Below, in pieces: positions 28,609-41,936 of a DNA stretch of 64,000 nt; the stretch's first letter is position 1, and each line of letters starts with the position of its first letter. This stretch comes from Rickettsiales bacterium. GTDB taxonomy: Bacteria; Pseudomonadota; Alphaproteobacteria; Rickettsiales; JABIRX01. The stretch is taken from contig JAYOLW010000004.1 in the NCBI GenBank assembly GCA_038120515.1, positions 10,605 to 74,604 of the forward strand, read 5' to 3'. The notes under the pieces were generated by a model, which was not told where the DNA came from, searched no databases, and saw nothing but the letters and a program-made list of their open reading frames with translations. The position numbers and the translations under genes were made by a program.

Positions 28609-28775
28609 AAAAATAAATATAATAAAAAGAGTTAATTTTTTATCTATAACTACAATAACAGTTTTAAACTTTCTGCACTAATTTTTTTAGAAAGCGATTT
28701 TTATTGTATAATAAAAATAAAATTTGTAAGTAACAGCTGATTCAATTACTTCTAAATTGATACATTTTTATCTTT

Positions 28776-30515
28776 ATGAACAAAACGAACTCTAATAAAA
28801 ACTACAAGTCATGCTTCAAGCTTTTACTAAATTATGCTAGCTCATACAAGCTATTAATTTTTGGTTTTATTATTGCTTTAACGGTATCTTCAGCCTCTGT
28901 TTTATCTCTTGGAACTGCATTAAGATATCTAATTGACTCAGGCTTCAAACTTAACGACTCGTTAAATTATGCAATATTAATTTTATTATTAATTGTAATA
29001 TTTCTCTCATTAGCAACAAGTCTAAGATTTTATTTTGTAACATTATTGTCAGAAAAAATAATATTAAAAATAAGACATGATGTTTTTCATAAGCTAATTT
29101 ATCAAAATCAAAGTTTTTTCAACAAGAACAAGATTGGCAATTTAATTTCGTCTGTTACGAATGATCTGGCGCTAATTCAATCTTTCATTGCCTCAAATCT
29201 ATCTATATTACTTAGAAATTTTATTATTTTAGTGGGTGCAATTACAATCTTATCATCAACTAACATTACCTTATTTTTCTATATAATTACATTAATACCA
29301 ATTGTTGTTCTTCCTTTGATATTTTTTATAAAAAGATTAAGAAAACAATCTAAAGAAACTCAAAATGTTATTGCTGATTTGACCGCCAATATGCATGAAC
29401 ATTTATTAGGTATCAAAACAATACAAGCCTTCTCTGCGGAAAATTACTCTTCACAAATTTTTAAAACTCAACAAGACATTGTCCTTAATTTTTCTAAAAG
29501 ACGAATTTTGACTAGAAGCATTCTTACATTAGTGATTATTTTTTTAGTATTTACTACAATTTTATTTTTAATCAAAAAAGCTGGTGTTTTATTACTTACA
29601 AATCAAATATCTGCTGGCGAACTTTCATCATTTGTATTTTTTAGCCTATTAATTGCTGGATCCTTTGGTGCCATTGCAGAAGTTATAGGAAACTTATTTA
29701 AATCTCTTGGTGCTTTTGAAAGAATATCACAAATCCTTAACAACTATGAAGAAAAAAGAAATCACAACAAAACTCAACAATTAGACCAAGAAATATTCCC
29801 GATAAAGTTTGATAAAGTAAATTTTGCCTATCCCGAAACAAACTTAATATTAAGAGATATAAATTTGTCTATAAACAAAAACCAAATCGTTGCAATTGTA
29901 GGACCGAGCGGATCAGGAAAATCAACCTTATTTAATCTGCTCTTAGCTTTTTATAATACTAATTCTGGTTCTATAAAATTTGGTAATGTATCATATAACA
30001 AACTTAGTACTGCAACTATACGTTCAAAATTTTCATTAGTTCCACAAGATCCTTTTATGTTTTCTGGTTCAATTGCAGAAAATATCGCGCTTAGCCAAGA
30101 GTTTGATGATAACAAAATCATTAATGCTTTAGAATTAGCGCAAGCACTAGAGTTTGTAGAAAAACTTGATCAAGGTATTTTTACAGAATTAAATGAAAAT
30201 GGCACAAATCTTTCAGCTGGACAAAAACAAAGAATTGCAATTGCTAGAGCTGTTTATCACAAATCTTCAGTAATTTTACTTGATGAAGCAACAAGTAATA
30301 TTGACAACAAAAACGAGCAAAACCTTGTCAAAGTTCTAAAAAAACTAAGTACAAAATTTACAATAATTATTATTGCTCATAGAAGAGAAACAATTCAAAA
30401 TGCAGATTACATATATGTTTTAAACAATGGTCAAATTATTGATGAAGGCTCTGATGATGACCTTAATAATAAAAAAGGCCTTTACAAATCTTTATTAGGA
30501 ATGCAATCTGACTAA
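28776..30515 (+). CDS. ABC transporter, fused permease/ATPase (ABCB/MsbA-type exporter)
   Basis: 6-TM N-terminal domain, Walker A GPSGSGKST, signature LSAGQKQRIAIARA, Walker B ILLDEATS; 579 aa. Confidence 0.9.
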   Translation: MNKTNSNKNYKSCFKLLLNYASSYKLLIFGFIIALTVSSASVLSLGTALRYLIDSGFKLNDSLNYAILILLLIVIFLSLATSLRFYFVTLLSEKIILKIRHDVFHKLIYQNQSFFNKNKIGNLISSVTNDLALIQSFIASNLSILLRNFIILVGAITILSSTNITLFFYIITLIPIVVLPLIFFIKRLRKQSKETQNVIADLTANMHEHLLGIKTIQAFSAENYSSQIFKTQQDIVLNFSKRRILTRSILTLVIIFLVFTTILFLIKKAGVLLLTNQISAGELSSFVFFSLLIAGSFGAIAEVIGNLFKSLGAFERISQILNNYEEKRNHNKTQQLDQEIFPIKFDKVNFAYPETNLILRDINLSINKNQIVAIVGPSGSGKSTLFNLLLAFYNTNSGSIKFGNVSYNKLSTATIRSKFSLVPQDPFMFSGSIAENIALSQEFDDNKIINALELAQALEFVEKLDQGIFTELNENGTNLSAGQKQRIAIARAVYHKSSVILLDEATSNIDNKNEQNLVKVLKKLSTKFTIIIIAHRRETIQNADYIYVLNNGQIIDEGSDDDLNNKKGLYKSLLGMQSD

Positions 30516-30549
30516 AAATGTATTTATATTACAAAATTATTACCAAGAA

Positions 30550-32016
30550 ATGATTAAATTTATTTATGACAAATTAAAACCATATGTGAATATCATTTCT
30601 GCGATTTTGGTAATTTTGTCGTTATGTTTTGTAATGTTAACCCATTATAAAATCTACATATCAAATTCTGGAGATGCATCAGAACCAGTTCCTAACTGGC
30701 TTCTACTTTTAGACCTTTTACTAATAATAATAATCTGTAGTCTTATTGGCCTTAGAATTAGAAATTTCATTAATAAATATTTAAAAGGTAATAGTAAAAA
30801 CAAATTACAAAGAAAAATCTTAAACATAATAATATTGTTTGCAATATTACCACCATTTTTATGTATTACATATTTCTACATATATTTCTCTAATAGTTCA
30901 AAAATGTGGTTTAACAACGCCATCGATCAATCATTAAAAGAATCTCTAGAAATTTCCAAAATTTACGTTAACGAAAATAAAGCTAGGCTAAAAGATAACT
31001 TATTTGAACTCAAAAGATTTGTGGAGAAGAATACTGATCTATTGCTTAGTAACCCAATCAAATTTGAAAAGAAATTCTCAGCCCTTGCAGCAAGCAGATC
31101 TATTACTGAGGCAGTTATTTTAATTAATAACAAAAATAAAAATAAGATTTTATCTAAAACTGCATTCTCATTTTATCCATCTCTTGAAAATTTTAATATC
31201 ACCCAAGATTACAAGCCAAATGATGCTGGAGTCAGTATCATCATGAATGAAGATGACAATTATATGAGAGCAATTACTACCTTAGATAATATGCCTAACA
31301 CATATATATTACTTGGTATATTAGTAAATGATAAGGTAATAATGCATATCAAAAATGTTCAAGGTGCCAATAAAGACTACAACAACCTGAAATCTAATAT
31401 TGAGATTACCCAGAAACAATTTTTAACAAGCTTTACCATCTTGAGTTTTCTTGTTATCTTATCTTTGATTCTTTTATTTATAATTTTTATTTCAAAATAC
31501 ATACTGCCTTTATTAGAGGTTATAAATGGTATGCAAAAAATTTCCGAAGGTGATTATTCAACTGAATTAGACAAATCTAACAAAAATACTGAAATTTCAT
31601 TGCTTTTTTCCTCTTTCAATAAAATGACTAAATTAATTGCTCAAAAAAATAATGATCTTTCATTTTCTATGCAATTAAGTGAATCAAAAAAAGACTTTCT
31701 TGAATATATCCTTGGCTCTCTTCCTACAGGAGTAATATATATAAATACTAATAAAAACATAACTCTTTATAATCAAGCTTCATCAAATATCCTTAATGAA
31801 AAGTCACTAAATGGTAAGAATATATCAGAGGTATTTGTTGGAATTGAAAAATTAATAGCAATTGCTGAAAAACATCCTGACAAACATCATGAAGAAATTA
31901 TAAAAATTAAAATTAATGGAAAAGTTCAAAAAATAAGCGTAACTATTGCAATAGATTTTGCAAAAGGAGAAATAAGAGGCTTTATCATTAATTTTTTAAC
32001 TGTAATAAACAACTAA
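30550..32016 (+). CDS. NtrY-like membrane sensor lacking the histidine-kinase core (TM-HAMP-PAS only)
   Basis: Four N-terminal TM helices, a HAMP-like segment (LLEVINGMQKISEGDYSTEL...FNKMTKLIAQKNNDL) and a PAS-like segment. The ORF stops after ...GFIINFLTVINN, where NtrY homologues continue into the H-box and ATPase. No H-box or N/G boxes are present. Confidence 0.6.
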   Translation: MIKFIYDKLKPYVNIISAILVILSLCFVMLTHYKIYISNSGDASEPVPNWLLLLDLLLIIIICSLIGLRIRNFINKYLKGNSKNKLQRKILNIIILFAILPPFLCITYFYIYFSNSSKMWFNNAIDQSLKESLEISKIYVNENKARLKDNLFELKRFVEKNTDLLLSNPIKFEKKFSALAASRSITEAVILINNKNKNKILSKTAFSFYPSLENFNITQDYKPNDAGVSIIMNEDDNYMRAITTLDNMPNTYILLGILVNDKVIMHIKNVQGANKDYNNLKSNIEITQKQFLTSFTILSFLVILSLILLFIIFISKYILPLLEVINGMQKISEGDYSTELDKSNKNTEISLLFSSFNKMTKLIAQKNNDLSFSMQLSESKKDFLEYILGSLPTGVIYINTNKNITLYNQASSNILNEKSLNGKNISEVFVGIEKLIAIAEKHPDKHHEEIIKIKINGKVQKISVTIAIDFAKGEIRGFIINFLTVINN

Positions 32017-32034
32017 CCTTTTAGATATAGAATC

Positions 32035-33381
32035 ATGACTAAATGCTATATATTAATAAATAGTACCACAACAAAGAAAAAGCTAACCTCATTCTTTGAA
32101 AATAATAAAATTGAGTTTGCAACTATATGTGATTCTAATCTAGAGCAATTAAACATAGAAGATGTTTCTAATGCAGCGTTATTTATTGATTCTGAAAATT
32201 TAATTAAAATCGCAGAATTCTACAATTTTCAAAAGACTAATTTCCAAAGTACTATTTTAATTCAGAATATATCTGACAACATTACTACAAAAAAACATAC
32301 AAAGCTCTGTGAGCTAATAATTAACCCGCCTTTATCAAAGGTAAAACTTGAAAAAACTTATGATTTTATAAACAAATATAATATTTTAGAGATTAACAAT
32401 AAAAATGTAGATTCATTTGATTATGGTGAATATTTCTTACAAGGAACCTCGCAAATACTTGGCAACTTTAACACTGAACTAAAAAACATTGCAAAAACCC
32501 AAGATAATATTTTTCTTGAAGGTAGTTTAGGTACTGAAAAAATAAGAGTTTTAAATCATATTGTTGAAAATGTTAGGGCTAAAAGTGAAAAAATTGTTTA
32601 TTTAAGATGTAAACAAGTAATGAAAAGTGATGCTCCTAAAAAAGTTATCAATACAATATTAAAGAGCTTATCTAATAATTCTGAATTTAATGAACTTTTA
32701 GTAATTTACCAACCTTATCATCTTGATGAAGAGGCACAAAATATATTATTGTCACTCTTAACAGAAAAACAAAATATTCAATCTATTACTGTTAGTCAGT
32801 ATTCGCCGGATGTATTAATTAACGAGTTTAATTTCAAGAAAGATTTAATTGCTTTGTTAACCAATCAAACTATTAAAATCCCTGTTCTTGTAAATAGAAA
32901 ACATGACATTCCTCACATTGTGGATTATTTAACTGAACGTCTTATTTCGATATATGGTTGTCAGGATATCAAATTTTCAACTACCGCTCTTATTACACTT
33001 CAATCATATGAATGGCCTGGTAATTATACAGAACTTAGAAATATCATAGAATCATTATTAATAAATGCAGTTGAAAACCAAATGGATATAATCGAATCAA
33101 AAGACTTACCTTCTGATTTATTTATTGTTAATCAAGCATCGCTTAACCCTTCTGTTAATTATGATATTATGTCAAAAGATCTTAAGGAAGCACGATCAAT
33201 TTTTGAGAAGCAATATATAGAAGCCCAAATTCGAAGATTTGGTGGCAATGTTTCTCATACCGCAAATTTTATTGGTATGGAAAGAACCGCATTACATAGA
33301 AAATTATCTTATCTTGGAATTATGAGTGACGACTTAAGATCTTCAATAAAAGGATATAAGAGAAGCTCAAGTAATAGCTAA
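32035..33381 (+). CDS. NtrX/NtrC-family regulator homologue with degenerate receiver and Walker A
   Basis: Central AAA+ sigma54-interaction-like domain (YHLDEEAQNILLSLL, FKKDLIALL..IKIPVLVNRKHDIPHIV, WPGNYTELRNIIE) and C-terminal Fis-type HTH (GGNVSHTANFIGMERTALHRKL). The P-loop reads GSLGTEK (nt 32521-32541) instead of GxxGxGK. The N-terminal REC-like region lacks the DD pocket and the conserved Lys. Confidence 0.65.
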   Translation: MTKCYILINSTTTKKKLTSFFENNKIEFATICDSNLEQLNIEDVSNAALFIDSENLIKIAEFYNFQKTNFQSTILIQNISDNITTKKHTKLCELIINPPLSKVKLEKTYDFINKYNILEINNKNVDSFDYGEYFLQGTSQILGNFNTELKNIAKTQDNIFLEGSLGTEKIRVLNHIVENVRAKSEKIVYLRCKQVMKSDAPKKVINTILKSLSNNSEFNELLVIYQPYHLDEEAQNILLSLLTEKQNIQSITVSQYSPDVLINEFNFKKDLIALLTNQTIKIPVLVNRKHDIPHIVDYLTERLISIYGCQDIKFSTTALITLQSYEWPGNYTELRNIIESLLINAVENQMDIIESKDLPSDLFIVNQASLNPSVNYDIMSKDLKEARSIFEKQYIEAQIRRFGGNVSHTANFIGMERTALHRKLSYLGIMSDDLRSSIKGYKRSSSNS

Positions 33382-33417
33382 CAATATCCACTACTAGCAT
33401 CATTTAATTGTTTAAAA

Positions 33418-36400
33418 ATGTCTGAAGCATTGCAAAAGAAAATATCAAAGAAGTTTTTATCTTCTTATAAAATTGCTTTAAATTCATCTGATTTAAAAGC
33501 ATTTGATAATGAGAAACTTAATTTTATTGCCAATACTCTTTTGAAGCTAGGCTTTCAGAAGAAACCTGGAGAAGCTAAATTGGATATAGTTACCCCTAGT
33601 AGTAAAGATGATAATTTTAATTTAGATGCTAGCATTATAAATATAATTAACGATGATAAACCATTTTTGGTTGATTCTATAACATCAGCAATAAATGATT
33701 TAGGTTATCATATAAATTTAATTGTTAACAAAGTTTTATATATAAAAAGAGATAAAAATAATTTTATTGAAGATATCAAAGACACAAAATATGACGAAAA
33801 CTTCAAAGCAGAATCATATATTCAACTTCATATCAAGAAAATTTATAACAACAAAACCAAAGAATTCTTAAAAAATCAATTAACACATATTGTTCAACTT
33901 GTTGAGGTTGCAGTTTTTGATTGGAAAAAGACAATAGACCTTCTTGATGATGCTAGACATAAAATTATAAAAACTGATCATGAGTCAGATAAAAAACACG
34001 AAGCAATTGAATTTATTGATTGGGCATTAGATAGTAACTTTATCTTTTTAGGTTATTCAGAAACTTATATTAAGGAAAAAAATGAAACTTTTGATTTTGT
34101 CCAGAAAAACTCTGAAAATCTTGGTATTCAAAGATTACACAATTATGATGATCTATCATCAATTACCAAAAAGGTTTTTTTAGAAGATAATTTTCCTATT
34201 ATTATAGTAAGTAAATTAATTGCAAAATCGCCTGTTCATCGACCTGTTAATCTAGACATGATTCGAATAACTATTTTTGATGACAAGCTAACACCTTCGG
34301 GTGAACTTCGTTTTATTGGTTTATTTACATCAAAACTATTCTATCAATATGCAAAAGATATACCTATAATTAGAAAAAAAATTGAATATGTAACTAAAAA
34401 AGCCAATTTTGATCCGAAAGGGCATAATGGTAAAGCATTAGTTTCAGTTTTGGAATCATATCCAAGAGAAGAATTATTTCCGATTAAACATGATGAATTA
34501 TTAGATATCTCATTGGGAATTATAAAACTTGGTGGTTCAAATGAGGTTAAAACATTTTTTAGAATAGATCCTTTATGTAGATTTATTAGTGTAATTTGTT
34601 TTGTTCCAAAGAAAAATTTTAGTACCGGTATAAGACAAAATATTCAAAAGATTTTGTCGAATGAGATAAATCATAAAGTTACATCTCACTCAACATTGAT
34701 TTCAGATCAACCTTATGCAAGAGTTCATTTTATAATTGTTGTTAAGGATTGCAACATCAGAAAAATTAATTACAAGAAAATTGAAAAACTAATTACTGAA
34801 TCTGCACAAAATTGGCATGATCAACTTGAAATAGAGATTTTTCAAAATTATGATGAAAATCTAGCAACAGGATATGTCAGTAAATATCTAAATTGTTTTC
34901 CTTTGTCATATCAAGAGCATTTTAGTTTTTGCAATGCAGTTAATGATGTTGTTATATTTGATAATTTGTTAAAAAATGACAGCCCTTTTATATCTTTGTC
35001 TAAAATTGATGATAGAGAAGGTATTTTTCATTTAAAATTATACACTGTTAATCAGGTTACATTATCAAATATAATGCCAACATTGAATAATTTTGGACTA
35101 AATGTAATCAGTGAAAATATCTATTTAATAAAACCAGAAAATTCTATCAAGAAAATTTGGATAAGCAGTTTTGATGTTTCTATTAATATTTCAGATTCAG
35201 AGTTTATATCAATTAAGAAACATTTTGAACTAGCTCTTTTAGATTGTTGGCTTTCTAAATATGAAAATGATCATTTGAATCAATTACTGTTAAAAGCATC
35301 ATTTCATATTAAAGATATTTTCCTTATTAGATCATTTGCCAAATATATTATTCAAACTAGCTTTTCATTCAGTTTAGACTTTATTGAAAATACCCTTGTT
35401 GAATACCCAGATATCACTAGAGAGATCAAGGATTTATTTTATGCAAAATTTGATCCCTCAATAAAGAATAGAAACATTTCGAAATTTAAAGACAATATTT
35501 TAAAACACTTACAAAAAATTTCAAATATTTCTCATGATCATATTTTTAAAAAATTTGTTGAAATTATCGACAATATGGTTCGAACAAATTTTTTCCAAAA
35601 AGATCAAAATAATTATATATCCTTTAAGTTATTAAGTAAAAACTTATCAGATTTATTGTTACCAAAACCTTTTGCAGAAATTTTTGTTTATTCGGCTGAA
35701 ACAGAAGGTATTCATTTGCGTGGAGGAAAGGTTGCACGAGGTGGCCTTAGATGGTCTGATAGGATTGCTGATTATCGAACTGAAGTTCACGGGCTTGCAA
35801 AAGCTCAAATGACTAAAAACTCCATTATTGTTCCTGTAGGTTCCAAAGGTGGATTTATAGTTAAGAAAGATACATCAAAATTAACAAGAGATGAGTTTGT
35901 TGCAGAAGGTATTAAATCTTATACTACTTTCTTAAGTGGTTTACTAGATATAACCGACAACATAATAGATGAAAAAATTGTCAAACCTGATTCTGTGATT
36001 TGTTACGATGGAGATGATCCGTATCTAGTAGTTGCTGCTGATAAAGGAACAGCTACATTTTCAGATATTGCAAATTCAATATCTGCAAAATATAATTTTT
36101 GGCTTGGCGATGCTTTTGCCTCAGGTGGATCTCAAGGCTATGATCATAAGAAGATGGGAATCACAGCAAAAGGAGCTTGGCAATCAGTCACAAGACATTT
36201 TTTTGAAATTGGGATAAATATTAATAAGAATGATTTTAGTTGCATAGGTATTGGTGATATGTCGGGAGACGTATTTGGTAATGGTATGTTATTATCAAAA
36301 AAACTTAAGCTTGTTGCAGCTTTTAATCACATGCATATTTTTATTGACCCTACCCCTAATGCAGAAAAATCTTTTAAAGAAAGACAAAGGTTGTTTAAAC

Positions 36401-38157
36401 TTCCAAGGTCAAATTGGACCGATTATAACTCTAAATTAATTTCAGAAGGTGGAGGAGTTTTTTCACGTCAAGAAAAGTCTTTGGAATTAACGAAACAAAT
36501 CATGGATTTACTTAATATAAATTCTAAAATTGTTACACCAAACGAGTTAATTCAGGCAGTATTAAAAGCAGATGTAGATCTATTATGGAATGGTGGTATT
36601 GGAACATATATTAAAGCTAGTGCTGAAAGTAATGCTGATGTTGGTGATAAGAATAATGATGCATTGAGAGTTAATGCTAAAGACCTTAGATGTAAAATTA
36701 TTGGTGAAGGCGGAAATTTAGGCCTAACTCAAAGAGGTAGAATTGAGTATGCACATCATGGTGGAAGAGTTAATACTGATTCAATTGATAATTCAGGTGG
36801 CGTAAATTGCTCTGATCATGAAGTAAATATTAAAATCGCACTTCAAGATTTACTGCAAAAAAACATAATAAATGTAGAGGTAAGAAACAAACTTCTTGAG
36901 GAAATGTCAGATGGTGTAGAAGCTTCAGTATTATATGATAGTCTTTTATCAGCTCAAGCAGTCTCTCTTGCCGAGTCTAACAGTTATAACGCTCTTGAGC
37001 ATCAAGAACGACTTATGAAAAAACTTGAAGATTGTGGTTTACTTGATCGTAAAGTCGAGTTCTTACCTGATACCGAAGAAGTTAACAGAAGAAAATCTGA
37101 AAAAACTGGTTTGACCCGACCTGAGTTATGTGTATTACTATCATATTCGAAAATTTATTTATATAATGATTTAGTCTCGTCATCTTTACCAGATGAAGGA
37201 TATTACTTGAATGAATTAATCAAATATTTTCCACAAAAACTTGTTAATGAATTTAAAGCTGAATTATTTAATCATCCTCTAAAAAGAGAGATTATTTGTA
37301 CATTTGTTGCAAATAGTATGATTAATAGATTAGGTATAACTTTTTTTAATCGTGTATCCAATGATACAGGTCTCAAAATTTGTGACATTTCTAGAGCCTA
37401 TACAATTATTAAGGATTCTTGTGAATTACCTATATTATGGAAAGACCTTGAGAAATTAACATATAAGACCTCAGCCGAAATCCAAATAAAGATGTTTAGA
37501 AAAATTTCTAAATTCATTGAACAGTCAACATTATGGTTACTTCGAGTATATAGAAATACGCTTGATATTATTGAGAATTATGTAGCAATTTATCATGACA
37601 AAATTGCAATAATACTTGATAATCTTGAAAAAGTTTTATCCGAAGAGGCATTAGAGAGTTTTAATAAGAATTATAAATTTTATAAATCTCAAAATGTTAC
37701 TGATGATATTGCAAAAAAAGTTGCAGCGTTAGAATTTATGCCAGCAATTTATCAAATTATTTATGTATCACAAGATAGTGATATTGATTTATTATCTATT
37801 GCCAAAATATATTTTCATATTGGTATTAGAATGCATTTTAGATATCTTAGTCTCAAAGTAATTGATTTAAACCCGGATTCTTATTGGGATAAGCTATCTT
37901 TAAAGAGTTATATAAGTAATCTTTTTGATCAACATATGAGAATTACGAGCGAAGTTGTAAAGTCTTATACAAAAGAAACTAAAATTGCTAATTCAGATAA
38001 GGTTGTTGATGAATGGATTCAATTAAATCAAAAACAGATTCAGCGTTATGATGAACTTATTGCTGATATTCAAACTCATCAATATCCTGATTTTTCAATG
38101 CTTAATGTTGCGGGTCATAGGGTTAAAGAGATTTCATCTATGACAAAGAATGTATGA
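33418..38157 (+). CDS. gdhB: NAD-specific glutamate dehydrogenase, large (about 180 kDa) class
   Basis: 1579 aa. Catalytic core motifs HLRGGKVARGGLRWSDR, AKAQMTKNSIIVPVGSKGGF, VVAADKGTATFSD and GGSQGYDHKKMGITAKGAW are typical of the GdhB-type enzyme. Confidence 0.9.
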   Translation: MSEALQKKISKKFLSSYKIALNSSDLKAFDNEKLNFIANTLLKLGFQKKPGEAKLDIVTPSSKDDNFNLDASIINIINDDKPFLVDSITSAINDLGYHINLIVNKVLYIKRDKNNFIEDIKDTKYDENFKAESYIQLHIKKIYNNKTKEFLKNQLTHIVQLVEVAVFDWKKTIDLLDDARHKIIKTDHESDKKHEAIEFIDWALDSNFIFLGYSETYIKEKNETFDFVQKNSENLGIQRLHNYDDLSSITKKVFLEDNFPIIIVSKLIAKSPVHRPVNLDMIRITIFDDKLTPSGELRFIGLFTSKLFYQYAKDIPIIRKKIEYVTKKANFDPKGHNGKALVSVLESYPREELFPIKHDELLDISLGIIKLGGSNEVKTFFRIDPLCRFISVICFVPKKNFSTGIRQNIQKILSNEINHKVTSHSTLISDQPYARVHFIIVVKDCNIRKINYKKIEKLITESAQNWHDQLEIEIFQNYDENLATGYVSKYLNCFPLSYQEHFSFCNAVNDVVIFDNLLKNDSPFISLSKIDDREGIFHLKLYTVNQVTLSNIMPTLNNFGLNVISENIYLIKPENSIKKIWISSFDVSINISDSEFISIKKHFELALLDCWLSKYENDHLNQLLLKASFHIKDIFLIRSFAKYIIQTSFSFSLDFIENTLVEYPDITREIKDLFYAKFDPSIKNRNISKFKDNILKHLQKISNISHDHIFKKFVEIIDNMVRTNFFQKDQNNYISFKLLSKNLSDLLLPKPFAEIFVYSAETEGIHLRGGKVARGGLRWSDRIADYRTEVHGLAKAQMTKNSIIVPVGSKGGFIVKKDTSKLTRDEFVAEGIKSYTTFLSGLLDITDNIIDEKIVKPDSVICYDGDDPYLVVAADKGTATFSDIANSISAKYNFWLGDAFASGGSQGYDHKKMGITAKGAWQSVTRHFFEIGININKNDFSCIGIGDMSGDVFGNGMLLSKKLKLVAAFNHMHIFIDPTPNAEKSFKERQRLFKLPRSNWTDYNSKLISEGGGVFSRQEKSLELTKQIMDLLNINSKIVTPNELIQAVLKADVDLLWNGGIGTYIKASAESNADVGDKNNDALRVNAKDLRCKIIGEGGNLGLTQRGRIEYAHHGGRVNTDSIDNSGGVNCSDHEVNIKIALQDLLQKNIINVEVRNKLLEEMSDGVEASVLYDSLLSAQAVSLAESNSYNALEHQERLMKKLEDCGLLDRKVEFLPDTEEVNRRKSEKTGLTRPELCVLLSYSKIYLYNDLVSSSLPDEGYYLNELIKYFPQKLVNEFKAELFNHPLKREIICTFVANSMINRLGITFFNRVSNDTGLKICDISRAYTIIKDSCELPILWKDLEKLTYKTSAEIQIKMFRKISKFIEQSTLWLLRVYRNTLDIIENYVAIYHDKIAIILDNLEKVLSEEALESFNKNYKFYKSQNVTDDIAKKVAALEFMPAIYQIIYVSQDSDIDLLSIAKIYFHIGIRMHFRYLSLKVIDLNPDSYWDKLSLKSYISNLFDQHMRITSEVVKSYTKETKIANSDKVVDEWIQLNQKQIQRYDELIADIQTHQYPDFSMLNVAGHRVKEISSMTKNV

Positions 38158-39100
38158 TAATTGTTTTAACCTTTGAAGATAGTTGAATATTTTCTACATT
38201 TCTCTCAATATAATTTCTTACATTTGGAAGATATTTTTTGTATTTACTAAAACCTTTTCTCTGAGAAAATTTTGAAAATAATCCATATATTCTTAAATTT
38301 CTTTGTATTGATAATATAGAATATTCTTGAATAAATTCCTTTTTATCAATTTCTGGATTATGATCAAAAAAGAAATCTAGCATTTGCTTTTCAAAAATTG
38401 GGGTAACAAATCTTCGAGCATCCTGAAGCAGTGAAACAACATCATAGGATTGAAAGCCTATTGAAATATCCTGATAATCAATTAGCCCTACTTTATTAAT
38501 TCCTTCACGTTCATCCAACCACATTAGGTTATCAACATGGAAATCTCTAAGCGAAAGAAATGTCGGTTTTTTTAATAATTTAAATAATGAAACAAAGGAA
38601 TTTTCGACCTCATCTTTATATAAGTCAATGACACAATTATTAACAAATTCTTCGATTCCATTTTTTAGACTTGTTAAATTATGAAACTCAAAATCAAGAT
38701 TATTAACGGATAGTTTTTGCAATTTAGATAAAAGATATAAAGATTTTTTATATATTTCTTCTTCAGTTCCCTGGCTAACATCACGCAGATAATTGTTAAC
38801 TTTAGTATCACCAAAATCTTCTATCAAGGCAATTGAATGTTCAAAATCTATTAAATGTATATAAGGAACAGAGAAACCATGATTATTAAGGAAATATGAA
38901 GATTTTATAAATTTATCAAATTGCTTTGGCTCCTTCATAGAATCCATTATGACATAAGTTTTATTTTTGTGCAAAACTCGATAATATTTTCTATCTGATA
39001 AATCTGTTGGCAAAGAAAATATTTTTGAATTTGCCAAATTATTATCTATAAATTCAACTAATTGCCTTGGTAAATTGTATTTATTAACTTCAATTTGCAT
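38138..39100 (-). CDS. aminoglycoside-phosphotransferase-fold kinase (AmgK-like MurNAc/GlcNAc kinase candidate)
   Basis: Brenner-type LRDFHVDNLMW and IDYQD motifs of the APH/choline-kinase fold. Sits immediately downstream of tsaE, as in many alphaproteobacteria. Confidence 0.7.
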   Translation of the reverse strand: MQIEVNKYNLPRQLVEFIDNNLANSKIFSLPTDLSDRKYYRVLHKNKTYVIMDSMKEPKQFDKFIKSSYFLNNHGFSVPYIHLIDFEHSIALIEDFGDTKVNNYLRDVSQGTEEEIYKKSLYLLSKLQKLSVNNLDFEFHNLTSLKNGIEEFVNNCVIDLYKDEVENSFVSLFKLLKKPTFLSLRDFHVDNLMWLDEREGINKVGLIDYQDISIGFQSYDVVSLLQDARRFVTPIFEKQMLDFFFDHNPEIDKKEFIQEYSILSIQRNLRIYGLFSKFSQRKGFSKYKKYLPNVRNYIERNVENIQLSSKVKTIIIHSLS

Positions 39101-40488: not shown

Positions 40489-41862
40489 TCACACATATTT
40501 AAACTTATGTGAAAAAATCTTTTCTACTTTCTTTAATTGCGACACATAAGAAACAATAATTAAACTATCTCCAGCTTCTATCATAGTATCATCAAGAGGA
40601 ACAACTGTTTTACCTCTTCTTAAAATAGCAATTATATCTATTCCTTCTGGCAATTTTAATTCAGATAATTTTTTGCCAGATGAAAAAGAATTGTCATATG
40701 AGGCAGTTTCGATAATTTCTGCCTGCCCCTCACAAATAGAGAATACATTCCTAGATTTTATATCTCTTGTATATCTTAAGATAGATGATACTGATATTTC
40801 TCTTGGATTAACAATAACATCAATACCTAACGAAGAAAATAATGGAGCAAAAGAAGAAGAGTTAATAAGAGATATAGCTTTTCTACATCCAAACTTTTTA
40901 GCAAGTAAAGCAGATAAAATATTTACCTCGTCATCATTAGTGATAGATATTATCATATCACTATTTTCAATATTAACTTCACGAAGTATTTCTTTCTCTA
41001 AAGCATTACCATTTATAATTGAAATATCTGGAAAATGTCCTGCCAAGAAATGAGCCCTTTCAGTATTAGTTTCAATTATTTTTAAATTAATAGCACTATT
41101 TTGTTGTAAATTTTTAGCTAAACTAAACCCTACTCTTCCTCCACCAACTATACGAATATTTCTTGCTTCTGAATCCTCATGGCCAAGCAAAGACATTACT
41201 TCTTTTATATCTTCATTATCTGCAGCTAAATATATCTCATCATCATGCGTTAAAATAACATCTTTTTTTAAGCTAAATTCTTGATCTCTAAGAAAACCAA
41301 ATATCTTAACCCGTAAATTTTTTGATAACTTCTCATTAGCTTTAGCAATAGTTAAACGATTAACAATTGAATCTTTTGTAAAGCGAACGGATACAACCTT
41401 AGCTCTATCCCCAGAAAAAATAAATGTTTCATTAGCTCCTGGAACTTCTAATCTATTAAAAATAGCTTTAGCTACCTCTTTCTCTGGAGATATAATTAAA
41501 TCAATTGGAAATGTGTCAGTTGAAAAAATACTATCATGATATTTACCAAGATAACTATGATGCCTAATATGCGCAATTTTCTTTTTTACACCAAATAAAT
41601 TTGACGCCAAAAAGCATGTAACCATGTTAACTTCATCAGAATCTGTAACAGCAATTATCATATCAGCTTCATCAGCGCCAGCAGCTCTCAGCATGGATGG
41701 ATGAGATGATAGACCAACAATACAATTTAAATCTAATTTATGTCTGATTTTGTCAAGGATCTCATCACTTGAACCAATAACCGTAACATCATTACCTTCA
41801 TTAACAAGCTGTTCAGCAATACCTGATCCAACTGGACCAGCTCCACAAATTATAACTTTCAT
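40489..41862 (-). CDS. trkA: Trk potassium uptake system protein TrkA
   Basis: Two RCK_N domains (MKVIICGAGPVGSG; IVGGGRVGFSLA) each followed by an RCK_C domain. Start placed at ATG 41862, giving 458 aa. Confidence 0.9.
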   Translation of the reverse strand: MKVIICGAGPVGSGIAEQLVNEGNDVTVIGSSDEILDKIRHKLDLNCIVGLSSHPSMLRAAGADEADMIIAVTDSDEVNMVTCFLASNLFGVKKKIAHIRHHSYLGKYHDSIFSTDTFPIDLIISPEKEVAKAIFNRLEVPGANETFIFSGDRAKVVSVRFTKDSIVNRLTIAKANEKLSKNLRVKIFGFLRDQEFSLKKDVILTHDDEIYLAADNEDIKEVMSLLGHEDSEARNIRIVGGGRVGFSLAKNLQQNSAINLKIIETNTERAHFLAGHFPDISIINGNALEKEILREVNIENSDMIISITNDDEVNILSALLAKKFGCRKAISLINSSSFAPLFSSLGIDVIVNPREISVSSILRYTRDIKSRNVFSICEGQAEIIETASYDNSFSSGKKLSELKLPEGIDIIAILRRGKTVVPLDDTMIEAGDSLIIVSYVSQLKKVEKIFSHKFKYV

Positions 41863-41936
41863 AAATTTAAAATTAGAAGTTTTTATAACAATTCTAATAA
41901 GCAGCTTGATTATTAAAATCAAATTGTATCGTGATT

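What the first reader, a model, noticed from the sequence alone, without database searches (positions are those of the whole stretch)
30550..33381. NtrY/NtrX pair that seems to have lost its phosphorelay: sensor without kinase core, regulator with degenerate receiver and P-loop
Seen in sequence:
- The NtrY-like ORF (488 aa) has the 4-TM, HAMP and PAS layout. It terminates at ...GFIINFLTVINN, where NtrY proteins continue into the H-box/DHp and ATPase domains.
- Only 18 nt separate it from the next gene, so no kinase core is hidden in the spacer.
- The NtrX-like ORF keeps recognisable AAA+ and Fis-HTH motifs (YHLDEE Walker B, FKKDL...IPVLVNRKHDIP, WPGNYTELRN, GGNVSHTANFIGMERTALHRKL).
- Its Walker A is GSLGTEK (nt 32521-32541) rather than GxxGxGK.
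- Its receiver-like N-terminus has INST where the acidic DD pocket is expected, and INPP where the conserved K-P is expected.

Established knowledge: NtrY/NtrX is a conserved alphaproteobacterial two-component system that needs His-to-Asp phosphotransfer. NtrX is already atypical because it lacks the GAFTGA loop.

Inference: both partners are kept as intact ORFs but probably signal without phosphorylation or ATP hydrolysis, as a pseudo-kinase and pseudo-receiver pair. Alternatively they are on the way to being lost.
Basis: partly seen in the sequence, partly recalled or inferred. Interest (0 to 1): 0.55.

Follow-up and report, generated by a model that had tools for sequence, protein, structure and literature searches.

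The report
Kinase-less NtrY with dead-pocket NtrX
An uncultured marine alphaproteobacterial lineage has kept, under purifying selection, a two-component sensor/regulator gene pair in which the sensor has lost its whole kinase module and the regulator its phosphorylation pocket and ATPase motifs, so the pair can no longer signal by phosphotransfer.

Summary

**NtrY-like ORF (30550-32016, 488 aa).** It has four TM segments, a periplasmic domain, HAMP and PAS. It stops 4 residues after the last PAS strand, so there is no DHp or ATPase domain.

**NtrX-like ORF (32035-33381, 448 aa), 18 nt downstream.** It keeps the receiver/AAA+/HTH fold of Brucella NtrX. It lacks four of the five receiver active-site residues: both DD positions, T and K. 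It also lacks the Walker A glycine (GTEK), both Walker B acids (YQ) and the conserved RL arginine.

The phospho-acceptor Asp (D52) is retained. YHLDEE is not the Walker B.

**Not decay.** The same kinase-less NtrY and degenerate NtrX occur in 13 loci from about a dozen marine lineages. These form one clade in an NtrX tree. Pairwise dN/dS is 0.04-0.18 at saturated dS, like the flanking housekeeping genes.

**Conserved neighbourhood.** In all 13 loci a giant NAD-glutamate dehydrogenase gene lies directly downstream. It is within 10 kb of none of about 71 canonical ntrYX loci.

**Most likely reading.** This is a phosphorylation-independent sensor/transcription-factor remnant, probably tied to glutamate catabolism. 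How or whether the two proteins communicate is untested. It is a new variant of known kinds: pseudo-receivers and atypical enhancer-binding proteins.

The parts
28776..30515 (+). ABC exporter-type gene (ABC_membrane + ABC_tran, 579 aa), 34 nt upstream of the ntrY-like gene. It is a conserved upstream neighbour in the related loci and possibly the first gene of the operon.
   Evidence: Pfam. Present upstream of the kinase-less ntrY in window, L001, L002, L003, L004, L018, L082, L084, L087 and L088. Spacers are given.
30550..32016 (+). NtrY-like membrane sensor without a transmitter (488 aa).
   Evidence: Pfam NtrY_N, HAMP and weak PAS; no HisKA or HATPase_c. Aligns to full-length NtrY up to the end of PAS. 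My kinase-core HMM finds nothing. AF2 model pLDDT 78. Foldseek finds WalK-type TM-Cache-TM-HAMP-PAS and many PAS domains.
30550..30909 (+). NtrY-like residues 1-120: three N-terminal transmembrane helices.
   Evidence: Hydropathy segments at about 15-35, 50-70 and 90-112. AF2 helices 2-39, 49-77 and 85-120.
30910..31404 (+). NtrY-like residues 121-285: periplasmic alpha/beta (Cache/PDC-like) domain. It is the best conserved part of the protein.
   Evidence: AF2 secondary structure. Mean pairwise identity is 0.85 in the close clade and 0.61 across the whole kinase-less clade, higher than any other region. Foldseek finds chemoreceptor and kinase ligand-binding domains.
31405..31659 (+). NtrY-like residues 286-370: fourth transmembrane helix plus HAMP.
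   Evidence: Hydropathy segment 293-317. Pfam HAMP at 320-360.
31660..32001 (+). NtrY-like residues 371-484: cytoplasmic PAS domain. The protein ends 4 residues after its last strand.
   Evidence: Sub-threshold Pfam PAS hits at 384-481. AF2 strands 394-484. Foldseek PAS matches. Alignment to canonical NtrY.
32017..32034 (+). 18-nt spacer between the two genes. It is too short to hide a kinase core.
   Evidence: Sequence. Spacers of -1 to 28 nt in most related loci.
32035..33381 (+). NtrX-like regulator (448 aa): pseudo-receiver, degenerate AAA+ domain, Fis-type HTH.
   Evidence: Pfam. NCBIfam NtrX scores 169 bits against a cutoff of 600. AF2 pLDDT 82. Foldseek top hits are Brucella NtrX 5m7p/5m7o/5m7n over about 456 columns, E 1e-25.
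32035..32394 (+). Residues 1-120: receiver-like (beta-alpha)5 domain. Active-site positions are DD1=I8, DD2=N9, D=D52 (kept), T=Q77 and K=P98.
   Evidence: AF2 strand and helix order. Residue tally against 71 canonical NtrX. No Response_reg hit from Pfam or from an NtrX-receiver HMM run with --max.
32437..32889 (+). Residues 135-285: AAA+ alpha/beta subdomain with deletions and degenerate motifs.
   Evidence: Pfam Sigma54_activ_2 at 137-285. Alignments. Mean identity in the close clade is only 0.55.
32521..32541 (+). Walker A remnant GSLGTEK. The Gly before the Lys is replaced by Glu168.
   Evidence: Translation. E or Q in 12/12 members of the clade, against G in 70/71 canonical NtrX.
32707..32712 (+). 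Walker B position: Y225-Q226 in place of D-E.
   Evidence: Alignments.
32890..33123 (+). Residues 286-363: AAA+ lid domain, well conserved.
   Evidence: Pfam AAA_lid_14, E 2.8e-14. Close-clade identity 0.89.
33190..33321 (+). Residues 386-429: Fis-type helix-turn-helix, nearly invariant.
   Evidence: Pfam HTH_8. Identity is 0.95 in the close clade and 0.80 across the whole clade. Invariant columns.
33418..38157 (+). Large NAD-specific glutamate dehydrogenase gene (1579 aa), 36 nt downstream of the ntrX-like gene.
   Evidence: Pfam GDH domains in the orthologous loci. Directly downstream in 13/13 kinase-less loci and absent within 10 kb of all canonical ntrYX loci.
40489..41922 (-). trkA, the usual downstream neighbour of ntrYX in Alphaproteobacteria. 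It supports positional orthology.
   Evidence: Pfam TrkA_N and TrkA_C. trkA lies within 10 kb of ntrX in 61 canonical loci.

Best explanation
This is a selectively maintained derivative of the alphaproteobacterial ntrY-ntrX two-component operon, shared by a clade of uncultured marine lineages that NCBI labels 'Rickettsiales bacterium'.

**What changed.**
- In the common ancestor of the clade, NtrY lost its whole transmitter (DHp plus ATPase). It kept its four TM helices, periplasmic ligand-binding-type domain, HAMP and PAS.
- NtrX became a pseudo-receiver with a non-catalytic AAA+ domain. It kept an almost invariant lid and Fis-type DNA-binding domain.
- His-to-Asp phosphotransfer and ATP hydrolysis are therefore no longer part of the mechanism.

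**Proposed mechanism (inferred).**
- The NtrX-like protein acts as a sigma-70-type DNA-binding regulator, as other GAFTGA-less enhancer-binding-protein relatives do.
- Its likely targets include its own tightly packed gene cluster: ABC exporter, ntrY*, ntrX* and the NAD-glutamate dehydrogenase gene. That would link it to glutamate catabolism.
- The membrane NtrY-like sensor modulates the regulator by direct protein contact or membrane sequestration, not by phosphorylation.

**Shown versus inferred.**
- Shown: domain content, the missing residues, clade-wide conservation, purifying selection, and the gene-neighbourhood association.
- Inferred: DNA binding, the gdh target, and any physical coupling between the two proteins.
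For: **Domain content.**

**No kinase core.** My NtrY kinase-core HMM finds nothing in the window or in any of the 13 related loci. The same HMM detects NtrY, NtrB and other kinases in the other loci.

**Active-site tally, 12 clade members against 71 canonical NtrX.**

| Position | Clade | Canonical |
|---|---|---|
| DD1 (Asp) | 0/12 | 70/71 |
| DD2 (Asp) | 3/12 | 70/71 |
| D (Asp) | 8/12 | 71/71 |
| T/S | 3/12 | 70/71 |
| K | 1/12 | 70/71 |
| Walker A Gly before Lys | 0/12 | 70/71 |
| xxRL Arg | 2/12 | 70/71 |

**Pattern of decay.** Different lineages replaced D, T and K with different residues. The clade member that kept the most receiver residues (L005) still has D, S and K and a sub-threshold Response_reg hit. 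This pattern is expected if the pocket drifted after a single ancestral loss of the kinase.

**Single origin.** The clade is monophyletic in an NtrX neighbour-joining tree.

**Purifying selection.** dS exceeds 1 for almost all pairs, while dN is 0.06-0.26 for ntrY* and 0.13-0.33 for ntrX*. This is similar to gdh and the ABC gene.

**Where constraint falls.** In NtrY* it is strongest on the periplasmic domain (0.85 and 0.61 identity). In NtrX* it is strongest on the lid and HTH (0.89-0.95).

**Neighbourhood.** gdh is directly downstream in 13/13 loci against 0 of about 71 canonical loci. Spacers are very short, and stop and start overlap in L018.

**Literature.**
- Ehrlichia NtrX binds and activates the putA and glnA promoters, which are glutamate and glutamine genes (PMC4251998).
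- Brucella NtrX and other atypical EBPs work without sigma-54 (PMC6158489).
- Pseudo-receivers are a recognised class (PMC12632262).
Against: - No experiment or transcript data exist for this lineage.
- The promoter and terminator scan is uninformative in this AT-rich DNA.
- No convincing conserved operator was found.
- Conserved gene order in streamlined genomes can persist without functional coupling.
- D52 is retained in 8 of 12 lineages, so some residual use of that site cannot be excluded.
- The DHp domain, which is the normal docking site for a receiver, is gone. A new contact surface would therefore have to exist.
- The rest of the genome could not be searched for kinases.
- The NJ tree could group fast-evolving sequences artificially.
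Confidence: 0.6

Rival explanations
1. The two proteins are both functional but no longer work together. The NtrX-like protein is a constitutive or ligand-controlled transcription factor. The NtrY-like protein has a separate role, for example working with the adjacent ABC exporter or another membrane partner. Adjacency would then be inherited synteny.
For: - The receiver's normal docking partner (DHp) is absent.
- The strongest constraint on NtrY* is periplasmic, not cytoplasmic.
- The ABC gene is a constant upstream neighbour.
- Most characterised atypical response regulators act without a partner sensor (PMC12632262).
Against: - The pair has stayed adjacent, co-oriented and separated by -1 to 28 nt in most lineages across deep divergence, while the outer flanks changed.
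- The receiver-like and PAS folds are both retained.
Confidence: 0.25
2. The phosphorelay still exists. A separately encoded kinase core, a cross-talking histidine kinase or acetyl phosphate phosphorylates D52 of the NtrX-like protein.
For: - D52 is kept in the window and in 8/12 clade members.
- Only 64 kb of this genome and +/-10 kb of its relatives could be searched.
Against: - DD1 is absent in 12/12 members and DD2 in 9/12. T and K are both absent in the window protein. These residues bind the metal and the phosphoryl oxygens (PMC12632262).
- Four lineages replaced the Asp itself with T, Q or E.
- No kinase or further receiver domain was found in the window.
Confidence: 0.07
3. The genes are decaying remnants (pseudogenes in the making) that have not yet acquired stop codons.
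For: - Many catalytic motifs are lost.
- The N-terminal half of the NtrX-like protein evolves fast, at 0.52-0.55 identity in the close clade.
- One single-cell genome (L087) carries a frameshift in ntrX*.
Against: - Intact ORFs of constant length occur in 12 of 13 loci, spanning lineages with saturated dS.
- Omega is 0.04-0.18, like neighbouring housekeeping genes.
- The HTH is near-invariant and the periplasmic domain highly conserved.
- Both models are confident and well folded.
Confidence: 0.03
4. The truncation is an assembly, binning or gene-calling artefact.
For: The sequences come from metagenome-assembled and single-cell genomes.
Against: The same end point, 3-9 residues after the last PAS strand and followed directly by ntrX*, is seen in independent assemblies from different projects. 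These are Saanich Inlet, Black Sea, sea ice, Tara, JGI, Logan and a GORG single cell.
Confidence: 0.01

Closest known systems
Canonical NtrY/NtrX two-component system of Alphaproteobacteria (e.g. Brucella abortus NtrX, PDB 5M7N/5M7O/5M7P; Ehrlichia chaffeensis NtrYX)
   Same: - Same gene order and orientation, with trkA nearby.
- NtrY_N, HAMP and PAS domains in the sensor.
- Receiver, GAFTGA-less AAA+ and Fis-HTH fold in the regulator.
- Brucella NtrX is the best sequence match and the best structural match.
   Different: - No DHp or ATPase domain in the sensor.
- Four of the five receiver active-site residues are missing.
- The Walker A Gly, both Walker B acids and the xxRL Arg are missing.
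- NCBIfam NtrX scores 169 bits against a cutoff of 600.
- The gdh gene is inserted directly downstream.
Pseudo-receiver / atypical response regulators (PsR/ARR as defined in PMC12632262; e.g. ChxR, HP1043-type, FrzS)
   Same: Predicted (beta-alpha)5 receiver fold lacking conserved catalytic residues. Presumably regulated without Asp phosphorylation.
   Different: - Most characterised examples are orphans (PMC12632262). Here the ancestral partner sensor is retained next door, but without its kinase.
- The window protein is not aspartate-less, because D52 is kept.
- The receiver is no longer detected by Pfam PF00072 at all.
Atypical, sigma-54-independent enhancer-binding-protein relatives with non-consensus ATPase motifs (VpsR, TyrR, HupR, PhhR, HsfA; PMC6158489)
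   Same: The AAA+ fold is kept, there is no GAFTGA loop, the Walker motifs are non-consensus, and the C-terminal HTH is intact. VpsR and FleQ are among the top structural matches.
   Different: - Degeneration goes further here: Walker A, Walker B and the Arg are all affected, and there are two internal deletions.
- No evidence for a small-molecule ligand such as c-di-GMP.
Pseudo-histidine kinases (concept of Collins and Childers as summarised in PMC12632262; e.g. DivL from my own knowledge)
   Same: A sensor of two-component ancestry that can no longer autophosphorylate yet is retained.
   Different: Pseudo-kinases keep a DHp/ATPase-like fold with lost functions. Here the whole transmitter is deleted and only the input modules remain.
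SAR11 (Pelagibacter) NtrY/NtrX
   Same: A streamlined marine alphaproteobacterium that keeps ntrYX as one of very few regulators (PMC3870248). The NtrY is shortened, and the Walker B Glu is already lost in its NtrX.
   Different: SAR11 NtrY (593 aa) dropped the PAS domain and kept HisKA plus HATPase_c. Its NtrX keeps all five receiver residues. This is the opposite trimming.

Membership tests
NtrY sensor histidine kinase | NtrY_N region (multi-TM plus periplasmic domain) | tested here: met
   Pfam PF19312, E 1e-12, 48.5 bits against cutoff 23.2. Four hydrophobic segments.
NtrY sensor histidine kinase | HAMP followed by a cytoplasmic PAS domain | tested here: met
   HAMP scores 24.9 bits against cutoff 25, which is borderline. 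The L005 orthologue scores 29.7 bits. PAS is sub-threshold in Pfam but is supported by the AF2 model and by Foldseek PAS matches.
NtrY sensor histidine kinase | HisKA/DHp domain with the phospho-accepting His (H-box) | tested here: not met
   No Pfam hit at E<=1. The alignment ends before the H-box. The kinase-core HMM gives no hit.
NtrY sensor histidine kinase | HATPase_c catalytic domain | tested here: not met
   Same results as for HisKA. The 18-nt spacer leaves no room for it.
NtrY sensor histidine kinase | Encoded immediately upstream of ntrX, with trkA nearby | tested here: met
NtrX response regulator | Receiver domain with the five conserved residues (DD, D, T, K) | tested here: not met
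   The window protein has I8, N9, D52, Q77 and P98, so only D is kept. The canonical residues occur in 70-71 of 71 NtrX. No PF00072 hit.
NtrX response regulator | AAA+ central domain without GAFTGA but with nucleotide-binding motifs (Brucella NtrX was crystallised with ATP and ADP) | tested here: not met
   The fold is kept. Walker A reads GTEK, Walker B reads YQ, and the xxRL Arg is Leu. Nucleotide binding itself was not tested.
NtrX response regulator | C-terminal Fis-type HTH | tested here: met
   Pfam HTH_8, E 2.4e-10. The stretch F412-L424 is invariant except G414, which is conserved in at least 90% of sequences.
NtrX response regulator | Passes the curated NCBIfam equivalog model NF051870 | tested here: not met
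   168.9 bits against cutoff 600. Only residues 259-429 match well.
Pseudo-receiver / atypical response regulator (PMC12632262 definition) | Receiver (beta-alpha)5 fold | tested here: met
   AF2 gives beta1 4-7, alpha1 11-23, beta2 28-30, beta3 48-52, alpha3 53-66, beta4 72-76, alpha4 84-91, beta5 94-96 and alpha5 102-129. This is a prediction, not a solved structure.
Pseudo-receiver / atypical response regulator (PMC12632262 definition) | [quoted passage not shown] | tested here: met
   Lacks four.
Aspartate-less receiver (ALR) subset | Phospho-acceptor Asp absent | tested here: not met
   D52 is present in the window protein. The Asp is absent in relatives L018, L082, L084 and L088.
Atypical sigma-54-independent EBP | No GAFTGA loop and non-consensus Walker motifs | tested here: met
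   Alignments. Class description in PMC6158489.
Atypical sigma-54-independent EBP | Acts with sigma-70 RNA polymerase at target promoters | not testable with these tools
   No expression or binding data exist, and the genome-wide presence of rpoN could not be checked.
Pseudo-histidine kinase | Retains a DHp/ATPase-like fold that lacks one or more kinase functions | tested here: not met
   No such fold remains.

The most novel reading that the evidence does not exclude
A two-component system has been converted, once and stably, into a phosphorylation-free signalling pair. A kinase-less membrane sensor (periplasmic domain, HAMP, PAS) would control a pseudo-receiver transcription factor by direct contact, and the pair would be dedicated to switching the co-encoded NAD-glutamate dehydrogenase. 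This would be a natural example of how a His-Asp pathway can be rewired into a one-step protein-protein switch in a streamlined genome.
Probability: 0.25. Interest if true: 0.7.

Novelty: new variant of a known kind. Interest (0 to 1): 0.5.

Why it matters
- Pseudo-receivers are common, but how they are switched is largely unknown (PMC12632262), and nearly all studied cases are orphans.
- Here the ancestral sensor is still encoded next to the pseudo-receiver, but without any kinase module. Both genes are under purifying selection across a whole marine lineage.
- That gives a natural, comparative system for asking how input domains can control a receiver-like domain without phosphorylation.
- It also shows what genome streamlining removes first. 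SAR11 kept the kinase and dropped the PAS domain, and this clade did the reverse.
- The strict association with a giant NAD-glutamate dehydrogenase gene gives a concrete, testable target.
- It also warns against counting these genes as a working NtrY/NtrX two-component system in metabolic or regulatory reconstructions of marine metagenome-assembled genomes.

Tried and rejected
- **Hidden or split kinase core.** An HMM built from the DHp and ATPase region of six full-length NtrY found no hit in the window or in any of the 13 kinase-less loci. It did find NtrY, NtrB and other kinases elsewhere. A whole-genome search was not possible.
- **Further receiver domains in the window.** An NtrX-receiver HMM run with --max found none. 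It did not even detect the N-terminus of the NtrX-like protein.
- **Solved structures for the NtrY-like protein by sequence.** No hit.
- **Exact-sequence contig look-up for the window's own NtrY-like protein.** Not on record.
- **Promoter and terminator scan of 27900-38600.** Counts equal the shuffled expectation, so it is uninformative for operon structure.
- **Phylogenetic footprinting of the region upstream of the ABC gene.** Only a short motif (AAATTTGTAA) and an imperfect palindrome are shared by the three closest genomes. This is too weak to call an operator.
- **dN/dS.** Synonymous sites are saturated for almost every pair, and some NG86 dS values are undefined. The omega values are therefore rough, and only the qualitative result (dN far below dS, similar to the neighbours) is used.
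- **Naming the lineage through UvrB.** Beyond its own clade, the best named relatives are only about 64% identical and are spread over Rickettsiales, Holosporaceae and Sneathiella. No finer placement could be given.
- **Rfam.** Only three tRNAs in the window, and nothing near the locus.

Full report
**1. What is in the sequence**

The window is about 29% G+C. On the + strand it carries four tightly packed genes:
- an ABC exporter-type gene, 28776-30515;
- after 34 nt, a 488-aa ORF, 30550-32016;
- after 18 nt, a 448-aa ORF, 32035-33381;
- after 36 nt, a 1579-aa NAD-glutamate dehydrogenase gene, 33418-38157.

Pfam on the first ORF finds NtrY_N (res 19-300, above the curated cutoff), HAMP (at the cutoff) and several sub-threshold PAS models (384-481). 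Nothing resembles HisKA or HATPase_c, even at E<=1.

Pfam on the second ORF finds Sigma54_activ_2, AAA_lid_14 and HTH_8, but no Response_reg. The NCBIfam NtrX equivalog is its best hit, at 169 bits against a cutoff of 600, and matches mainly residues 259-429.

**2. The sensor has lost the whole transmitter**

Aligned with full-length NtrY proteins (737-764 aa), the ORF is collinear through the TM region, periplasmic domain, HAMP and PAS. It ends at ...GEIRGFIINFLTVINN. In canonical NtrY the equivalent strand (G.v.tFDDIT) runs straight into the H-box (AHEIKNPLTPI) and the ATPase domain.

Hydropathy gives four TM segments.

An AlphaFold2 model (pLDDT 78) shows, in order:
- three N-terminal helices;
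- an alpha/beta periplasmic domain (about 123-282);
- a fourth TM helix continuing into HAMP;
- a PAS fold whose last strand ends at residue 484 of 488.

Foldseek finds the TM-Cache-TM-HAMP-PAS part of WalK and many PAS domains.

An HMM I built from the DHp and ATPase region of six canonical NtrY finds nothing in the 64-kb window. It readily finds NtrY, NtrB and other kinases in unrelated loci.

**3. The regulator keeps the fold but not the chemistry**

The AlphaFold2 model (82-sequence alignment, pLDDT 82) has a regular (beta-alpha)5 N-terminal domain, an AAA+ domain, a lid and an HTH. Its best structural matches are the three full-length Brucella abortus NtrX structures (about 456 aligned columns, E about 1e-25). 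NtrC1, VpsR and FleQ follow. By sequence alone only residues 247-429 match Brucella NtrX.

I tallied key positions in 12 members of the kinase-less clade against 71 canonical NtrX from other Alphaproteobacteria:

| Position | Window residue | Canonical residue present in | Kinase-less clade |
|---|---|---|---|
| DD1 | I8 | D in 70/71 | D in 0/12 |
| DD2 | N9 | D in 70/71 | D in 3/12 |
| Phospho-acceptor D | D52 (kept) | D in 71/71 | D in 8/12 |
| T/S | Q77 | S or T in 70/71 | S or T in 3/12 |
| K | P98 | K in 70/71 | K in 1/12 |
| Walker A Gly before Lys | E168 | G in 70/71 | E or Q in 12/12 |
| Walker B D | Y225 | D in 54/71 | D in 0/12 (E in 5, C in 2) |
| Walker B E | Q226 | E in 39/71 | E in 7/12 |
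| Arg of xxRL | L274 | R in 70/71 | R in 2/12 |

Two short deletions remove the segment around the former GAFTGA position and the FxRVGG stretch.

- The phospho-acceptor Asp is still there.
- YHLDEE is not the Walker B. It aligns with the downstream MPLETQ stretch, so the true Walker B is lost.

By the definition in PMC12632262, a receiver lacking any of the five residues is a pseudo-receiver. This one qualifies, but it is not an aspartate-less receiver.

**4. It is old, shared and under selection**

Homology searches and contig look-ups recovered the same arrangement in 12 further loci:
- **Close relatives**, with 65-82% protein identity: L001, L087, L002, L003 and L004.
- **Distant relatives**, whose NtrX-like proteins are only about 30% identical to the window's: L005, L018, L082/83, L084/85, L088, L086 and L089.

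The sources are independent: Saanich Inlet, Black Sea and sea-ice metagenome-assembled genomes, Tara and JGI contigs, Logan assemblies and a GORG single-cell genome.

Where the gene is complete, the NtrY-like protein is 485-503 aa long and stops 3-9 residues after the last PAS strand. All other alphaproteobacterial loci retrieved with a complete ntrY gene have an NtrY of 590-830 aa with a kinase core.

In a neighbour-joining tree of 83 NtrX sequences, the 12 kinase-less-associated NtrX form one clade with no intruders. Long-branch attraction is a caveat.

Pairwise NG86 estimates among the six close genomes show saturated synonymous divergence (dS about 1 to over 4, sometimes undefined) but low dN. 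For the closest pair (L001 and L087):

| Gene | omega |
|---|---|
| ntrY* | 0.04 |
| ntrX* | 0.11 |
| gdh | 0.05 |
| ABC gene | 0.075 |
| asd | 0.044 |

Constraint is uneven:
- In NtrX*, the receiver-like and AAA+ alpha/beta parts are 52-55% identical within the close clade. The lid and HTH are 89-95% identical.
- In NtrY*, the periplasmic domain is the most conserved part: 85% in the close clade and 61% across the whole clade.

Different lineages replaced D, T and K with different residues. L005, the clade member with the most receiver residues kept, still has D, S and K and a sub-threshold Response_reg hit. This pattern is expected if the kinase core and DD1 were lost once and the rest of the pocket then drifted.

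The pseudogene reading and the artefact reading are therefore rejected.

**5. Context**

The window otherwise encodes housekeeping functions. These include purine, arginine and LPS biosynthesis genes (purL, argB, lpxK, lptD) and also glmS, uvrB, yidC and tyrS. purC/S/Q, kdsA, lpxC and dnaA are identified by synteny with annotated relatives. This gene content is not what one expects of a typical obligate intracellular Rickettsiales (my inference).

UvrB has no named relative above about 67% identity, so the lineage is deep and uncultured.

trkA, the usual downstream neighbour of ntrYX (present in 61 canonical loci), lies 7 kb downstream. This supports positional orthology.

The large NAD-GDH gene lies directly downstream of ntrX* in 13/13 kinase-less loci and is not found within 10 kb of any canonical ntrYX locus. 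An ABC exporter gene is upstream wherever enough sequence is available.

Spacers are short. ABC to ntrY* is 15-57 nt in most loci, ntrY* to ntrX* is -1 to 28 nt in most, and ntrX* to gdh is 8-69 nt in most. This is compatible with one transcription unit. The consensus promoter and terminator scan is uninformative in this AT-rich DNA, and upstream footprinting gave only weak motifs.

**6. Mechanism**

Shown:
- There is no transmitter, no competent phospho-acceptor pocket and no catalytic AAA+ site.
- The input domains and the DNA-binding domain are conserved.
- The pair is conserved with gdh.

Inferred:
- The NtrX-like protein acts as a phosphorylation- and ATP-independent DNA-binding regulator.
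  - It would resemble other GAFTGA-less, sigma-54-independent relatives. Brucella NtrX is described as a repressor of its own promoter. VpsR, TyrR and HupR have non-consensus Walker motifs (PMC6158489).
- A likely target is its own cluster, including gdh.
  - A link between NtrX and glutamate or glutamine genes has precedent in Ehrlichia, where NtrX binds and activates the putA and glnA promoters (PMC4251998).
  - SAR11 offers a second precedent, where NtrX responds to nitrogen limitation (PMC3870248).
- The NtrY-like sensor could control the regulator by direct contact or membrane sequestration. This is the weakest step, because the normal receiver docking site (DHp) no longer exists.

The main rival is that the two proteins now act independently.

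A residual phosphorelay through an unlinked kinase is unlikely. The metal-binding DD1 residue is absent in all 12 clade members, and DD2, T and K are absent in most. It could not be excluded genome-wide.

**7. Comparison and novelty**

The pair derives from NtrY/NtrX, but it fails the defining tests of both families. The sensor has no HisKA or HATPase_c. The regulator has an incomplete receiver pocket and scores below the NtrX equivalog cutoff.

The regulator fits two known categories: pseudo-receiver or atypical response regulator, and atypical EBP. The sensor is not a pseudo-kinase in the published sense, because no kinase fold remains.

In my four literature searches I found no description of a kinase-less NtrY or of a conserved pair of a transmitter-less sensor and a pseudo-receiver. 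That is absence of evidence from a limited library.

SAR11 makes a useful contrast. Its NtrY dropped the PAS domain but kept the kinase, and its NtrX keeps all five receiver residues.

I rate this a new variant of known kinds, of moderate interest. It is a clean evolutionary case with a testable target, but it has no demonstrated mechanism.

Noticed in passing
L087:12630-12870 (GORG single-cell genome GCA_902612485.1): The ntrX-like gene has one extra T in a homopolymer run (..CAATTTTTTGAAAAAC..). This gives a premature stop after ...ARSIF. The HTH is still encoded intact in the next frame. It is either a sequencing error or a very recent frameshift.
   Followed up: partly
L056:7891-9672 and other Pelagibacter loci (L042, L053, L057-L059, L070): SAR11 NtrY is only about 593 aa. 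It consists of NtrY_N, HAMP, HisKA and HATPase_c with no PAS domain. This is the opposite trimming to the clade studied here.
   Followed up: partly
NtrX genes of 71 canonical loci (L006-L079): The Walker B catalytic Glu is absent (Q, N, G or C) from 32 of 71 otherwise canonical NtrX, and the Walker B Asp from 17 of 71. ATP hydrolysis therefore may not be a general property of NtrX.
   Followed up: no
L024:9581-10948, L026:9155-10573, L035:9581-10948 (Candidatus Midichloriaceae MAGs): These NtrX proteins have a fully canonical receiver pocket, but no NtrY-like gene lies within 10 kb. They are orphan NtrX, unlike the retained kinase-less NtrY here.
   Followed up: no
window 33418-38157 and the equivalent gene in all 13 related loci: The giant (about 1580-1610 aa) NAD-glutamate dehydrogenase gene is inserted between ntrX and the APH, tsaE and trkA genes only in the kinase-less clade. 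It overlaps the convergent APH-family gene by 20 nt (38138-38157).
   Followed up: partly
window 28700-28775 (upstream of the ABC gene): An imperfect palindrome (TTATTG-N2-YAATAA) is followed about 12 nt later by a conserved AAATTTGTAA. Both are shared with L001 and L087 but not with L002 or L004. They could be an operator and a -35 element, or chance in AT-rich DNA.
   Followed up: partly
window 14571-15851 (+), 17145-18314 (-), 47720-49726 (-): Three sizeable ORFs (426, 389 and 668 aa) have no Pfam family at E<=0.01.
   Followed up: no
window 20013-21377 (-): By synteny with L001 and L087 this ORF is dnaA, so the chromosomal replication origin may lie within the window. The GC-skew profile shows no sharp switch there.
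   Followed up: no
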